DNA of 64,000 nt from Octopus sinensis. Lineage: Eukaryota. A model generated the notes under the pieces. That model saw only the letters and a program-made list of their open reading frames with translations. It had not been told where the DNA came from and did not search any database. Each line of letters opens with the position of its first letter. The first letter of the stretch is position 1. A program made the position numbers and the translations under genes. The stretch is from the NCBI RefSeq assembly GCF_006345805.1, contig NC_043004.1, positions 59,954,001-60,018,000 on the forward strand, written 5' to 3'. Below, piece after piece: positions 2,991 through 61,742 of this stretch.

Positions 2991-3059
2991 TGCATGTATA
3001 TATACATATATATGTATGTATGTACATATATGTATGTATATGCATATTTATTATATAAA

Positions 3060-21904: not shown

Positions 21905-21919
21905 TAATAATATTATTAT

Positions 21920-22010
21920 TCGCTGTGGCAGGGACTGTCTAACACAGCTTCGCTGTGGCAGGGACTGTCTAACACAGCCTTCGCTGTGGCAGGGACTGTC
22001 TAACACAGCT
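21920..22010 (+). repeat. Three tandem copies of a 30-31-bp unit at the LINE 5' truncation point
   Basis: TCGCTGTGGCAGGGACTGTCTAACACAGC(C)T x3. Confidence 0.95.
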
Positions 22011-23078
22011 CTTACACCACATTGAAGATGTACTCAAAGCCTTGGGAACAGGTTCGAACTCTGACGTCATATATCTTGACTTCAGTAAAGCGTTCGACAG
22101 GGTAGACCATACATCCTACTCTCAAAATTGGCAAATGTTGGAATCCGTGGAAAGTTCTACGCTGGATTCAGTATTTCCTGGCGAATAACACACCATGTTG
22201 TAGTTGATGGAGTCCACTCAAACCCAGCAAAAGTCACCAGCGGTGTTCCCCAGGGAACTGTTTTGGGTCCGCTACTCTTCATAATTTACGTAAACGACCT
22301 TTCCAGTGTCGTACATCACTGCAAAGTGAAAATATTCGCTGATGAAACTAAGCTCCAGCAAATCGTCAATGAAGAAGCAGACCGAACTCAACTCCAGTCT
22401 GATCTATATGCTGTGAGTCAATGGGCAGACAGAAACAAAATGCAACTGAATGAGGGAAAATTTGAGCTGATGCATTTTGGAAGAATTCCTCACTAAAACA
22501 ACCATACTCTCTTCCTTCAGGGGAACCGCTCTCACAGCCTCTAACAATATCAGAGACCTGGGTGTAATTGTTGATGACAATCTCAGTTGGAGTGCACACA
22601 TCAACAAGAAGGTCGATATAGCTCGTAGGATGAGTTCCTGGATCTTAAGAACTTTCCGGTCCAGAGAACAAGGTGTCATCATTTTTTCCTCCTTTGTACG
22701 GCCACACCTTGAATACTGCTGCCCACTGTGGTCTCCTCACAGAAGACAAAACATCTCCAGAATTGAGTCACCCCAGAGGGCACTCACTAAACAAATTGAA
22801 GGCATGGCTGCTCTCGATTATTGGGATCGCCTTAAAGCCTTGAATCTTTACTCTCTCCAGCGTCGCCGTGAGCGGTACATCATTTGTACGATGTGGAAAA
22901 TATACCGCCAACTTTGCCCAAACGACCTAAACATTAGCTTCAAGGTTCATTCAAGACTTGGACCACGGGCTATACGTCCCCTGCCAAATTCAAGATCACA
23001 ACATACACGTACACTGCAACATAATTTCTTTTTCTCAACAGGCCCTGCCCTATTTAACATTGTCCCGATGGAGATCAA
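21920..23078 (+). pseudogene. CR1/L2-group LINE reverse transcriptase fragment, 5'-truncated, frameshifted and 3'-truncated by telomeric repeats
   Basis: RCGRDCLTQLL...VIYLDFSKAFDRVDH; SGVPQGTVLGPLLFIIYVNDL; IFADET (catalytic DD mutated); RDLGVIVDDNLSW; RPHLEYCCPLWSP; SLQRRRERY, spread over three frames. Confidence 0.92.
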
Positions 23079-23160
23079 AGGGTTAGGGTTAGGGTTAGGG
23101 TTAGGGTTAGGGTTAGGGTTAGGGTTAGGGTTAGGGTTAGGGTTAGGGTTAGGGTTCGGG
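23079..23160 (+). repeat. Interstitial telomeric array (TTAGGG)12
   Basis: 12 perfect TTAGGG units at 23083-23154, preceded by AGGG and followed by TTCGGG. Confidence 0.97.
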
Positions 23161-23259
23161 TTTGTTCGGAGTCTGCGCAGTGTTTTGAATAGTTTAGAAA
23201 GAGCATTTCGATAGACGCACATGGATCTATTGGTATGGTCTTTCCATCATTAACAGGAA

Positions 23260-23332
23260 TCTTACTGAAGAGCCAGCCTGAGTAAATAAATACTATTTTT
23301 ATTACTGAATTTGGCGAAACTGCAGTATAAGA
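23260..23332 (+). ncRNA. Type I hammerhead ribozyme, canonical core
   Basis: TCTTA-CTGAAGA-GCCA-(36 nt)-TGGC-GAAA-C-TGCA-GTA-TAAGA: stem I 5 bp, stem II GCCA/TGGC, palindromic stem III ACTGCAGT; predicted cleavage after 23327. Confidence 0.85.
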
Positions 23333-23508
23333 AAAGTTAAGTTTGTAAAAGTTTTTAATTCTCATCTCACTAAATTTATCCAGCTATTGTGTATCTAGTA
23401 CACTCTTCGCCTTGAATGTAATGATATATGTATAATATATGGCGTGTACTGGTACACCGGCGATTATAATTAATTTTATTGTATCGCATTTATCTTTGTT
23501 TATATATT

Positions 23509-23553
<45 letters not shown>

Positions 23554-23630
23554 GAAAAAAAATCTTTTATCAATTCATTTTATCACTCAAATAATAATTA
23601 TATTACATAATGTATATAATATATATATAT

Positions 23631-23720
<90 letters not shown>

Positions 23721-23727
23721 ATATATA

Positions 23728-23966
23728 CTAAGCAATAAAGGGTTTAGCAACGAATTGCCTTACCACATACCGAATTTAGAAATAGCAGTCAAGAGTTATA
23801 GCTATTTCTTCTACTAAAAAGGGAGATCTCAGTAAAAACAGCAATTGGAAGGCAGACACAAACAGGTAGTGAGAATGAATTGACGGCAATTTATCATACA
23901 ATTTTAAGTTATCTACGGACGTACGTTTCGAAATCAAGTTTTTAGGAAAGGATAAGAATTAAATAT

Positions 23967-23970
<4 letters not shown>
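23728..23970 (-). mobile_element. (TA)n-flanked element with the 3' half of a hammerhead (5'-truncated)
   Basis: Minus strand GAAAC-GTAC-GTC at 23918-23929; the 3' part aligns with 52840-52920. Confidence 0.6.
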
Positions 23971-23998
<28 letters not shown>

Positions 23999-25654
23999 CG
24001 TATGTACAGGCGTATTTTTCTTGGACTTTCTTTCTTTCTCCGGACCTCTCCTTTCTCTCCTCTTACTGACGAAAACCAAGTGTTTCAGCAATCTTTTTAC
24101 CTTTTCATCTTACACTCAGTGCCAAGCGTCTGTATTCACATGCACATACAGGCGAGTATTTACTGTTATGTACACGATTTTACACGTTTTGAATTTGTTA
24201 ACGAAATAGCATAGAAAGTGAACAAGAACGAATGGTTTTCTTTTACAACGTCATTATGTTTTGTTTTGTTTTTCCACATGACTCATATATTATATGATTT
24301 AGTTTTTAAGGCATTAAAAACGATTGCTTAGATTCGTGTTTTATTATTTTGATGTGTAGCCACAACATTTTCTTGATTAAACACTTTCCTGTCAGTCAGT
24401 ATTTTTACCTCACCTTATTTATTTTATAAATGTAGGATTGAGTTTTAGAGATACTTCTGTACACATTTTAGCATTTCAAACAACCACCTAATTGCTTCCT
24501 TATTAGTTTACCTAGGTGTCTGTTTAGATTGTTTAGTATTTCTTAGAAAATGATCTACGTCAATATGGCCGCCTCCAAACTAAACAAGTTGAACTTATAA
24601 TGCCTGAGTTAAAATGTTGTTTTCTTTTACTTGTTGCTATTATATACCATCAAGTTAGAGTCTTCAATTAGCTTGCAGCATAATGGGGGTGAGCCGGTCT
24701 AAAAGTTAGACGCAATCTACACAATATAAGCTGCTCTTCTGCGAAGTTTCTTCGTTTTACCACTATGGTGTCCTTTATCAGCCAGCCTTCGTTTCTGATA
24801 CAATGTGCACAAGAAGAATTTTCCATCATATTCAATACTTTTTGGTATATCAACCAGAATGTAGAACCAGGTTTGAGGGCAAAATTATCCCACGCAGCCC
24901 AGTATTTGTAACGACGTTATTATGAGCATAAGGTGAACACTTTTATCGTTGGGACACGACCTATCATTTAATCATGTGATAGCTATCTATACAGAATAGA
25001 AATTTGCTCGTAAATGAGTTAACTAAATGGTGCATACTATGACAGATTTAACTTCGTACCTACACTTCTATTATTCTTGGAATCAATAGCAAAACTATAC
25101 ACGGAGGTGACACGCTTCTTAGTTTCCTATTCTAAGAAATATATTGGAAGATAAATTGCATACAACCCTTACGAGATGTCAAATATGATATGAGTTTCAT
25201 AGGGGAGACAATAATTGAAGTAAAATTATGGGGATAAATTATGTGGCTGTCGTAACGTTTATATTCATATCATAGGAGATATGTGGGGTCACGCGAGCGA
25301 TAGTAAGATGAGAAGACATAAGAAAGCAGATGAAAACTGTTCCGTAATACTCCGATCGATATATCATATTTCTGCACCAAATTAATCCGGAGCCGACATT
25401 AGATTTCCCCGCAACCAAAGAGTTAATAACGTAAATAGCAATTTGCTATATTTCCTTCTCTCTCAAAAATATTACTTTCCAGCAATAACAATAATTCTAA
25501 TCTGTAATCTGGGTTGCAAAACGCCATATTAAACAGAGAAGATTTCGTATATATACACATACATGTGCGTGTACACGTGTATACACACACACATACACAC
25601 ACACATACATATATATATATACATGCATATACATATATATTTGTACATACATAC

Positions 25655-54718: not shown

Positions 54719-56004
54719 CGAGGGGCGTTCAATAAGTAATGCCTCTGACTCACTTGCCTTTGTTTGATCTAGCTGAAATTTTGTATGTGCAATTATTTAT
54801 ATCTCTATAGATTACGTGGCAAATTACAGCTCCGAACTAATTGTGGTTTTTGATTTACAGGTGTTTGAAATGAGTCAAGTGGGAAATGGAGCATGTTGAG
54901 TGTCGAGCAGTGATCCGGTTTTTGTATTTGAAATGACGCACACCACAGGAGACTTTTAATGAAATGAAAGTAACTTATGGTGATGATGCCCCATCATATG
55001 ACCTTGTAAAACGCTGGCATCGTGAATTCAAACATGGTCGGAACTCTGTGGAAACAGCTCCCAGATCTGGTCGCACCCCTTCTGCCATTGATGAGGCATC
55101 TGTCCGTCAAGTTGAGGCTGCCATTTTGGAAGATCGACGCATAACTATTCGCCAAATAGCCCATGAGGTCAAGATTAGTACCGGGTCTGTGGAAACTATC
55201 ATTTATTTGCATATGCAAAAGGTGTCTGCCAGATGGATTTCCAAGTTGCTCACACTTTTCCAGAAGCAAGAACGCAAGAATTCCAGAAGCAAGTATTTCG
55301 GAATGTGCCAAGAAGATGAGTCAAAATTTTTCAAAAGACTGATTACACAGGATGAGACCTGGGTCCATCACTATGATCCAGAGACCAAAGCCCAGTCAAT
55401 GCAGTGGAAGCACCATGACTCACCTCCTCCAAAGAAGGCAAGGGTGCAGCCCTCCGCTGGCAAGGTCATGCTCACAGTTTTCTGGGACCAGGACGGAGTA
55501 GTGATGACAGATTTCCTGGCAAAGGGTACCACAATTACAGGAGCCTATCATGTTCCACTTTTGAGGAAATTAAGAGAAGCTATCGAAACCAAGAGGCGGG
55601 GCAAGATCAGCAAAGGCATCCTCCTCCTGCAGGACAACGCTCCGGTCCACAACTCGCGTGTCGCCAGATCAGAAGCACAGGCGTGCGGCTATGAACTCTT
55701 CCCTCATCCCTCTACTCTCCTGACCTTGCACCCTCTGATTTTCACCTCTTCCCAGCCATGAAGTTGTTTTTGAAAGGAAAGCGTTTTCCAGATGATGCAG
55801 CATTGATTTCTGAAGTCACGTCGTGGTTGGAGGACCCAGCTGGGGTCTTCTACGAAAACGGTCTCCAGAACTGCATCAAGCGATGAGAGAAATGCGTACC
55901 TCTGGGTTGTTCCTATGTAGAAAAAGACTAATACCTGTGCCAAGTTTCGTTGCTCTACTGCTATGGGAAGTGGGTCAGGGGTATTACTTATTGAATGCCC
56001 CTCG
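54719..56004 (+). mobile_element. Full-length mariner transposon (irritans-like), 1286 bp, TA TSD
   Basis: 37-bp TIRs CGAGGGGC(G/A)TTCAATAAGTAAT...CACTT (4 mismatches); TA at 54717-54718 and 56005-56006. Confidence 0.95.
54886..55931 (+). pseudogene. Mariner DD34D-type transposase pseudogene
   Basis: MEHVECRAVIRFL (early TGA), RSGR, ARWISKLL, ITQDETWVHHYDPE, QDNAPVH, frameshifted YSPDLAPSD, end YVEKD*. Confidence 0.93.
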
Positions 56005-60173: not shown

Positions 60174-60251
<78 letters not shown>

Positions 60252-60474
60252 TTAATCAATATACTGGTGGCAGTAAAATTCTACAAAATTTTCCTTGCCA
60301 CCCTATATTGATTAATTATGAATCTTTTGGTTAATTCCGTAATGGAATCGACGGCTGATATTTATTTGCTGCCGATAAATTTGGCGCGAGTGCGACGATT
60401 TGAAAATTTTAGGTCAGATATTGACTTGGCAAGATTGGGTATGCCTCGTGTATATATCTGTTCCGACTTGAGCT

Positions 60475-60581
60475 ATTTCTTGCTGAAGAATCCGAGGGCT
60501 TATGGAAGATTGGCTTGATTTAATTTAATCAGGTTAGTTTACCATTAAACAGCAGACGAAACGGTGCATCGTATAAGAAAT
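60475..60581 (+). ncRNA. Type I hammerhead ribozyme with extended stem II (copy 1)
   Basis: ATTTCTTG-CTGAAGA-(68 nt including 19-bp hairpin 60502-60545)-GAAA-CGGTGCATC-GTA-TAAGAAAT: stem I 8 bp, near-palindromic stem III ACGGTGCATCGT; stem II base imperfect. Confidence 0.75.
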
Positions 60582-60966
60582 TACAGGGTAAATGTTTTTT
60601 AAATTTTCTCCTGTTTACGGAATGACTTTTATTTGCGGTTGAAGCTTTGGCTGTTATTTCTAGTGGGTGAATGGCCTATTATGGCCGTTCCTTGATTGTT
60701 GATATATATAAATATATATATATATTATATATATATATATATATTTAATCAATATACTGGTGGCAGTAAAATTCTACAAAATTTTCCTTGCCACCCTATA
60801 TTGATTAATTATGAATCTTTTGGTTAATTCCGTAATGGAATCGACGGCTGATATTTATTTGCTGCCGATAAATTGGCGCGAGTGCGACGATTTGAAAATT
60901 TTAGGTCAGATATTGACTTGGCAAGATTGGGTATGCCTCGTGTATATATCTGTTCCGACTTGAGCT

Positions 60967-61073
60967 ATTTCTTGCTGAAGAATCCGAGGGCTTATGGAAG
61001 ATTGGCTTGATTTAATTTAATCAGGTTAGTTTACCATTAAACAGCAGACGAAACGGTGCATCGTATAAGAAAT
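60967..61073 (+). ncRNA. Type I hammerhead ribozyme (copy 2)
   Basis: Identical to copy 1, offset 492 nt. Confidence 0.75.
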
Positions 61074-61742
61074 TACAGGGTAAATGTTTTTTAAATTTTC
61101 TCCTGTTTACGGAATTGACTTTTATTTGCGGTTGAAGCTTTGGCTGTTATTTCTAGTGGGTGAATGGCCTATTATGGCCGTTCCTTGATTGTTGATATAT
61201 ATAAATATATATATATTGGGAAATTTGATAAAGCGTGTCGGAGCAGACCGTCTAAGTCTAAATCCGATTCATCAAACCAGACCAGTTACAAGCTATGGCA
61301 CGTTCATATTGTCGTGAGAATCCATTTCAACTCGTTAAATCCTGAGCAACATAGAGATCCACGACGTCTATTTGCTTTCAAAATTTTTTAGGCAAATGAA
61401 ACCATAAAATATTGTGCATTATCTCTGTTTCTCTTTTTCTCTCAGTTTCTATCTCTCTCTCTCTCCCTCAGTCTCGCTCTATATTTCATTACATGTCCGT
61501 CTATTTTATGTATACATGACTGTCTGCTTATATATTTTTTTCATCTCTCGATATCTCTAACTATGTGTCGAGTACTAACAAACAGTACCAACATGCTAAA
61601 TATAGCAGTCAACATGACAAAACCACACGTTTTCACTCGAACACAAAGGTGAAAGCGGGCAAATGAACAAAAAAATTTAAAACCCTGTACCAATGACGAA
61701 TATATATATATATATGTTATATATACATATATATACATACAT

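What the first reader, a model, noticed from the sequence alone, without database searches (positions are those of the whole stretch)
23060..23510. LINE cut off by (TTAGGG)12 and followed by a canonical hammerhead element
Seen: the LINE reading frame ends abruptly at ...ATCAA|AGGG(TTAGGG)12; about 100 nt after the array lies the best-formed HHR in the window (23260-23332), and the segment ends in (TA)n. Known: telomerase can heal breaks at short microhomologies, and endonuclease-deficient PLEs (Athena/Terminon type) attach HHR-bearing ends to telomeric repeats. Inference: either a healed break later extended by a ribozyme element, or an HHR element that carries or targets TTAGGG. Caveat: the HHR is on the G-rich strand, opposite to what simple telomere-primed reverse transcription of the HHR-sense RNA predicts.
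Basis: partly seen in the sequence, partly recalled or inferred. Interest (0 to 1): 0.75.

Follow-up and report, generated by a model that had tools for sequence, protein, structure and literature searches.

The report
Telomere patch at a retrozyme junction
Thirteen perfect telomere repeats join a cut-off jumping gene to a truncated copy of a young, protein-free mobile element with a predicted self-cutting RNA motif, in mid-chromosome; none of the 110 other copies checked has such repeats, so this is likely a one-off repair patch added by telomerase, probably while the element was inserting.

Summary
The hammerhead segment (23156-23501) is the last 346 nt of a 404-nt tandem non-LTR retrozyme with at least 164 other 3' ends in this genome. 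Copies share one fixed 3' end at (TA)n and have variable 5' ends. Only 1 of 111 resolved 5' ends, this one, has TTAGGG. The site is 47 Mb from the nearer chromosome end. The repeats lie at the truncated end, on the sense strand, so the element neither carries nor targets telomeres.

The LINE lost at least about 220 nt and is cut at AG, in register with TTAGGG. The retrozyme is cut at its most telomere-like site (6 of 7 nt). Best reading: telomerase extended the upstream broken end, which then annealed to the truncated element; that this happened during the insertion is less certain. A second case, L211, has ten repeats at the seam of another hammerhead element's two arms. Two of 35 isolated tracts directly abut such elements.

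Reads did not confirm the junction. The scan found other retrozyme families in this genome, and telomere repeats at Penelope seams in other genomes, before (unchecked notes).

The parts
21919..23080 (+). LINE fragment, truncated at both ends; decayed RT and C-terminal region; 3' end missing (relatives run 222-361 nt further to a short tandem tail)
   Evidence: 96-97% identical to its best relatives; clade label CR1/L2-like is recalled, not tested
21919..22010 (+). 30-bp piece of the LINE tripled at its 5' truncation
   Evidence: single copy in the 10 relatives printed
23079..23080 (+). AG shared by the LINE end and the telomeric register (left junction microhomology)
23079..23156 (+). Perfect (AGGGTT)13 interstitial telomeric tract; longest perfect run among 35 isolated tracts examined
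23156..23162 (+). Telomere-like 7-mer of the retrozyme (6 of 7 match the register): right junction microhomology
   Evidence: top score, reached at 2 of 404 monomer positions, both in this same site
23156..23501 (+). 5'-truncated copy (monomer nt 59-404) of a 404-nt non-LTR retrozyme; 100% identical over 338 nt to a copy on C11
23260..23332 (+). Type I hammerhead motif: 5-bp helix I, long helix II, 2-bp helix III with palindromic loop; predicted cut 23327/23328; predicted to need a dimer
   Evidence: definition in PMC4209133
23502..23727 (.). (TA)n tract at the element's fixed 3' end, the inferred target; interrupted by about 65 nt of other AT-rich sequence
23728..23975 (-). Remnant of a different dispersed element facing the same (TA)n tract; 94% identical to the hammerhead-like element in L169

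Best explanation
This is a 5'-truncated copy of a young hammerhead retrozyme joined to a cut LINE by 13 perfect telomere repeats, which telomerase likely added to the broken upstream end, probably during the insertion itself. Shown: the three pieces, their borders, the family's fixed 3' end at (TA)n, and the absence of TTAGGG at other copies. Inferred steps: (1) a Penelope-type (Neptune-like) enzyme cut the (TA)n behind the LINE and copied 346 nt of retrozyme RNA from the family's fixed start; (2) the other end of the break was trimmed back at least about 220 nt into the LINE, to an AG; (3) telomerase used the AG as primer and added about 13 repeats; (4) the new G-rich tail annealed to the cDNA end at the element's GGGTT site, and fill-in sealed the joint. 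The patch is a by-product with no function implied. The ribozyme plays no part in it, and this lone copy is predicted to cut poorly.
For: Family anatomy: 404-nt tandem unit; 164 exact 3' ends at (TA)n; 111 resolved 5' ends scattered over the monomer, 88 with a TA-rich flank, 1 with TTAGGG. Loss of upstream target also occurs without telomere repeats: in L039 and L222 a repeat is cut mid-element at the 5' junction. 15 of 29 LINE relatives are followed directly by (TA)n, so the inferred pre-insertion site is common. Left junction: 2 nt in register; 49-60% of mammalian short ITS have 2 or more, against <= 6.25% expected (PMC2246262, PMC7215372, passages). Right junction: the best telomere-like site of the monomer; a SINE is joined the same way at its own GGGTT in L162. 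Timing: the retrozyme copy has no private change over 338 nt and the tract is perfect, while the LINE is 3-4% from its relatives. Recurrence: L211 has about 10 perfect repeats exactly between two 99%-identical head-to-head arms of another hammerhead element; two of the three longest perfect isolated tracts abut such elements. Enzyme: long RT plus GIY-YIG frames of 637-883 aa exist in the genome; a Penelope-type protein cuts and extends both strands of AT-rich DNA in vitro (PMC11167929, passages).
Against: No empty allele and no reads: the downstream flank is single-copy in the assembly. Most isolated tracts (31 of 35) have no hammerhead element at or just beyond the junction, so ordinary break repair makes them routinely, and a later deletion would give the same product. 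A 2-nt overlap is weak alone. No autonomous partner was found: the monomer gave only short AT-rich hits in 38 GIY-YIG loci. The tract census is partial and biased by the patterns used. The 2-of-404 figure was noticed after the fact. TERT and the telomerase RNA were not looked for. One earlier scan note (e1-7939624) reads a similar Penelope seam as a later repair scar.
Confidence: 0.5

Rival explanations
1. Two steps: the retrozyme inserted normally in the (TA)n; later a break deleted the LINE tail, the left (TA)n and the front of the retrozyme, and telomerase patched it. An ordinary short interstitial telomeric sequence with a deletion.
For: Same product and same microhomologies. 30% of horse ITS came with a deletion (PMC7215372). 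35 isolated tracts here, some at duplication junctions (L179, L184) or cutting LINEs (L376, L378); 8 of 35 touch (TA)n. Head-to-head arms such as L211 are break-prone (recalled).
Against: Needs two very recent events at one spot. The family covers on the order of 0.005% of the genome (rough: about 200 sites, median 417 nt). 5' truncation and loss of upstream target are already normal for this family.
Confidence: 0.27
2. The Penelope-type reverse transcriptase switched template from the retrozyme RNA, at its GGGUU site, to telomeric RNA (TERRA) or a G-rich overhang, copied 13 repeats, and the cDNA was then joined to the LINE.
For: Gives the same strand polarity and explains the 6-of-7 match at the right junction. 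TERRA capture has been proposed for some ITS (PMC7215372, passage).
Against: Most tracts in this genome formed with no hammerhead element beside them. Long telomeric arrays here are rich in variant units while this tract is perfect. The in-register AG on the left is what telomerase predicts.
Confidence: 0.12
3. Assembly chimera or collapse joining three repeats.
For: All three parts are repetitive; the assembly has telomeric arrays at internal gaps; no read support was obtained.
Against: No gap or N; both borders fall on base-exact microhomologies; the tract is error-free; comparable junctions recur (L162, L211).
Confidence: 0.05
4. The tract was taken from the abundant MITE families that carry TTAGGG runs, or from another interstitial array, as a templated insertion.
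For: 29 of 83 telomere-pattern sites examined are such MITEs.
Against: MITE runs seen are 4-7 perfect units, usually interrupted, and no MITE flank is present here.
Confidence: 0.04
5. An Athena/Terminon-like hammerhead element that carries or targets telomeric repeats.
For: Hammerhead next to TTAGGG; kinship with Penelope-like elements.
Against: 1 of 111 5' ends, and no 3' end seen, has telomeric repeats; target is (TA)n; site is mid-chromosome; strand polarity is wrong.
Confidence: 0.02

Closest known systems
Metazoan non-LTR retrozymes (PMC7229834, passages; bioRxiv 10.64898/2026.07.22.740005, first fifth of the text and passages)
   Same: Non-coding, AT-rich tandem units of 150-450 bp with one type I hammerhead each; dispersed monomers and multimers; proposed Penelope derivatives.
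   Different: This family has a 404-nt unit, a long helix II and one fixed 3' end at (TA)n. No telomeric patch appears in the passages seen. Expression, circular RNA and cleavage are untested here.
Short interstitial telomeric sequences inserted at double-strand breaks (PMC2246262, PMC7215372; passages)
   Same: Short perfect TTAGGG tract, in-register bases at the break's 3' end, flanking deletion.
   Different: The far side is a freshly inserted, 5'-truncated retroelement; invertebrate genome; no telomerase-RNA fragment was tested for.
Endonuclease-deficient Penelope-like elements, Athena/Coprina/Terminon (PMC8557442, PMC3846280; passages)
   Same: Hammerhead plus telomeric repeats; telomeric repeats are added at the truncated 5' end.
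   Different: Those prime on G-rich overhangs at chromosome ends with reverse-complement repeats, so the cap is expected on the cDNA strand. Here priming is at (TA)n, mid-chromosome, and the G-rich strand is on the sense strand, extending the opposite end. L211 is closer: one arm's inferred cDNA end was extended.
Endonuclease-bearing Penelope-like elements, Neptune clade (PMC8557442, PMC3846280, PMC11167929; passages)
   Same: Microsatellite or AT-rich target, partial tandems, 5' truncation, microhomology 5' junctions, occasional inverted arm (L036).
   Different: No ORF, and no sequence match to the 3' regions of 38 GIY-YIG loci; the mobilising family is not identified.

Membership tests
Metazoan non-LTR retrozyme | Tandem units of 150-450 bp, non-coding, no LTR | tested here: met
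   404-nt unit in arrays up to at least 3.6 kb; no ORF of 150 aa of its own
Metazoan non-LTR retrozyme | Type I hammerhead with intact core in the units | tested here: met
   CUGANGA intact in 152 of 163 units counted; GAAAC..GUA intact in 175 of 179; no Rfam hit
Metazoan non-LTR retrozyme | Dispersed insertions with a retrotransposition footprint | tested here: met
   Fixed 3' end, variable 5' end, on many contigs
Metazoan non-LTR retrozyme | Expressed, self-cleaving, circular RNA | not testable with these tools
   Runs were listed but none was laid; cleavage needs a bench assay
Metazoan non-LTR retrozyme | Derived from the pseudo-LTR of an autonomous Penelope-like element | tested here: inconclusive
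   No homology in 38 loci drawn from 150 scored of 5029 GIY-YIG candidates
Short interstitial telomeric sequence (break-repair type) | Short, near-perfect telomeric tract away from chromosome ends | tested here: met
   13 perfect units at 59.98 Mb of a 107.27-Mb contig
Short interstitial telomeric sequence (break-repair type) | [quoted passage not shown] | tested here: met
   AG, read from 29 LINE relatives; only 2 nt
Short interstitial telomeric sequence (break-repair type) | Empty orthologous or allelic site | tested here: inconclusive
   No second haplotype in the assembly; no relatives held; paralogous LINEs stand in
Athena/Terminon-type telomeric element | 3' end attached to telomeric repeats, at or near chromosome ends | tested here: not met
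   3' ends meet (TA)n in all loci printed; this site is 47 Mb from the nearer end
Athena/Terminon-type telomeric element | Reverse-complement telomeric repeats beside the hammerhead | tested here: not met
   Longest exact match of the sense strand to the TTAGGG register is 5 nt; no CCCTAA lies within the window copy; the tract is G-rich on the sense strand
Athena/Terminon-type telomeric element | Endonuclease-less RT reading frame | tested here: not met
   No coding frame in the element; upstream flanks of 111 insertions are microsatellite or unrelated DNA

The most novel reading that the evidence does not exclude
Penelope-type insertion opens a two-ended break, and telomerase recurrently captures the free end, whether trimmed target DNA (this locus) or the cDNA of an inverted arm (L211), before the ends are joined through GGGTT microhomology. 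Penelope-type retrotransposition would then be a real source of interstitial telomeric tracts in animals, and these seams would record telomerase acting on a transposition intermediate of its sister enzyme.
Probability: 0.4. Interest if true: 0.65.

Novelty: new variant of a known kind. Interest (0 to 1): 0.42.

Why it matters
How Penelope-like elements finish their 5' junction is still open; the in vitro work read here stops at nicking and first extension. If telomerase patches these junctions at a measurable rate, the intermediate has a long-lived free 3' end on the second strand, and retrotransposon activity is one origin of interstitial telomeric sequences. Both points can be tested by a genome census and with the existing in vitro Penelope system. 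If the patch came later, the locus is one more repair scar beside one more retrozyme family, and matters little.

Tried and rejected
Rejected: TTAGGG as part of the repeat unit. The 404-nt spacing first suggested it (338 + 66), but the 66 nt are unrelated sequence. Rejected: telomere targeting. Rfam found no hammerhead. Search for the autonomous partner: no match (the BLAST table was cut at 3000 characters, best E 0.046). Search for an alternate haplotype with the empty site: only the window's own locus. Sequencing runs: 24 listed, 20 holding part of the stretch; none was laid, so they are no evidence either way. The plain (TTAGGG)5 search was swamped by one long array, and the first flank pattern by MITEs. 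Rows dropped in the 5' census: of 116 loci, L293 had no usable 3' hit and 4 arrays ran off their locus; 64 of the 164 exact 3' ends were not listed, and only those also found were examined. In the tract census, 83 sites were classed by script (35 isolated, 29 MITE, 19 long or gapped); L344, L372, L186 and L188 look MITE-like or variant-rich by eye but were left among the 35; 189 rows and 3139 were not listed. Literature: searches found no paper on telomeric repeats at Penelope or retrozyme 5' junctions inside chromosomes; two searches returned nothing, and their phrases may have been too strict. No supplements were read; those of the bioRxiv retrozyme survey could list this family.

Full report
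Observation. The array is exactly 13 x AGGGTT at 23079-23156. The window lies at 59.95-60.02 Mb of contig C8, which is 107.27 Mb long, so the site is 47 Mb from the nearer end. The hammerhead has its core at 23265, GAAA at 23316 and a predicted cut after 23327. It was the only descriptor hit in the window, against 0 in 40 shuffles. Rfam does not recognise it and its folding energy is not exceptional (z -1.59). Helix III is 2 bp with a palindromic loop; the hairpin costs +2.9 kcal/mol, while two copies pair at -13.1. That is the usual metazoan form, which works as a dimer (PMC4209133, passages).

The hammerhead element. A search with 23163-23500 gave 155 matches from 40 scored of 781 candidates, most 97-100% identical and spaced 404 nt apart. 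The unit holds no telomeric repeat. All arrays printed end at the same base followed by (TA)n, with one- or two-base slips in two of them, while 5' ends vary. An exact pattern for that end has 164 matches, not counting the window copy. I examined 116 loci; 111 gave a resolved 5' end. Of these, 88 have a TA-rich flank, 55 are shorter than one unit, and only the window copy has telomeric repeats within 300 nt. The window copy is monomer nt 59-404 and is identical over 338 nt to a copy on C11. This anatomy fits non-LTR retrozymes (PMC7229834, passages; bioRxiv 10.64898/2026.07.22.740005, first fifth and passages). It also fits the microsatellite bias and partial tandems of endonuclease-bearing Penelope-like elements (PMC8557442, passages). 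The genome holds long RT plus GIY-YIG frames of 637-883 aa with the cysteine linker described for Neptune, but none of 38 loci shares sequence with the monomer, so the mobilising enzyme is inferred.

The LINE. All 29 other copies examined continue past the junction for 222-361 nt (median 265) to a short tandem tail, and 15 of 29 are followed directly by (TA)n. The window copy is 96-97% identical to its best relatives and carries frameshifts, so it is older than the retrozyme copy. At least the LINE's 3' end was lost; the deletion could be larger. Its last two bases, AG, are in register with the tract.

The right junction. The element starts at the most telomere-like site of its 404 positions: 6 of 7 bases match the register, a score reached at 2 positions, both in this site. 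This was noticed after the fact. It suggests that a G-rich tail annealed here. Upstream repeats are also cut at the 5' junction of two other insertions without telomere repeats, L039 and L222, so loss of target DNA is a normal by-product for this family.

Other tracts in the genome. Pattern searches and fetches gave 83 sites: 29 MITE-borne, 19 long or gapped arrays, 35 isolated. The census is partial and pattern-biased. The window tract is the longest perfect one of the 35. Two abut a hammerhead element directly: this one and L211, where about 10 perfect repeats lie exactly between two head-to-head arms that are 99% identical and both end in (TA)n. Two more, L169 and L182, have a short (TA)n between tract and hammerhead element. 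L162 joins a 5'-truncated SINE at the SINE's own GGGTT. Others mark duplication junctions (L179, L184) or cut LINEs (L376, L378). So short tracts form routinely here, mostly without such elements, and look like the break-repair tracts of mammals, where 49-60% have 2 or more in-register bases and 30% of horse cases have deletions (PMC2246262; PMC7215372; passages).

Mechanism. Most likely telomerase primed on the AG and the tail was joined by microhomology; I put that at about 0.75. Whether this happened during the insertion (0.5 overall) or at a later break (0.27) cannot be settled without an empty allele, and none is in the assembly. For coupling: both element and tract are unmutated, the family covers a tiny share of the genome, L211 repeats the pattern, and a Penelope-type protein cuts and extends both strands of AT-rich DNA in vitro (PMC11167929, passages). 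A template switch of the element's RT to telomeric RNA gives the same product (0.12). Athena-type behaviour is excluded for the copies examined: those elements attach to G-rich overhangs at chromosome ends and receive repeats at the truncated end (PMC8557442; PMC3846280), which would put the G-rich strand on the cDNA side; here it is on the sense strand and the anchor is (TA)n. The junction is unconfirmed by reads (chimera 0.05).

Novelty. The retrozyme is a new member of a known kind; no earlier scan note matched its sequence, though several other families from this genome are noted. The tract is a short interstitial telomeric sequence. Their combination was not found in print, which cover open-access text only. 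The scan has noted telomere repeats at Penelope junctions in at least four other windows from other genomes (unchecked), three read as telomerase patches made at the insertion or its seam and one as a later scar. The single locus is a curiosity; the recurrence is the testable part. Interest 0.42.

Noticed in passing
L211 / L385 (G000:C2:186232235): About 10 perfect telomere repeats exactly at the seam of a two-armed hammerhead element. The left arm ends on the element's own inverted TTAGGG, so the junction reads as a 4-bp fold-back that could have made the telomerase primer.
   Followed up: partly
L162 (G000:C6:111998960) and L371 (G000:C8:72755420): Telomere tracts joined to 5'-truncated SINE-like repeats at GGGTT or GGTT microhomology.
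   Followed up: partly
L169 (C10:6667077), L182 (C9012:27906): Telomere tract, a short (TA)n, then a truncated hammerhead-like element.
   Followed up: partly
L173, L179, L184, L298: Short telomere tracts at the junctions of local direct duplications (L179: 166 nt, L184: 116 nt by script; L173 and L298 by eye).
   Followed up: partly
L113-L140, L192, L193, L206 and others: Abundant MITE families with terminal inverted repeats that carry internal TTAGGG runs; 29 of 83 telomere-pattern sites.
   Followed up: partly
window 21919-22010: A 30-bp piece of the LINE is tripled exactly at its 5' truncation, after an (ATA)n tract; single in 10 relatives printed. Looks like repeated re-priming.
   Followed up: partly
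window 23502-24100: The (TA)n tract is a repeated landing site: a minus-strand remnant at 23728-23975 and a decayed hammerhead-like core near 24045.
   Followed up: partly
L331-L338: Young Penelope-like elements with open frames of 637-883 aa, at least two distinct families; several near-identical 781-aa frames.
   Followed up: partly
L036 (G000:C15:6199934): The one insertion of the 404-nt family seen with an inverted 5' arm among the first 40 arrays; inverted arms were not counted in the later 76 loci. Earlier notes report two-armed insertions as the rule for other families here.
   Followed up: no
L268 (G000:C6:12703829): A copy of the same LINE family lies about 700 nt from another insertion of the same retrozyme, without telomere repeats.
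   Followed up: no
window 54937-55761: 274-aa frame matching mariner/Mos1-type transposase (PF01359, E 9.5e-23).
   Followed up: no
G000:C1:75.755-75.773 Mb, C7:51.9 Mb, C10:56.7 Mb, C17:16.65 Mb: Long, variant-rich telomeric arrays at internal positions, several beside assembly gaps; misplaced ends or fusion sites.
   Followed up: no
window 60218-61216: Near-perfect 493-bp tandem dimer after (AT)n (99% matches), possibly another retrozyme-like family.
   Followed up: no
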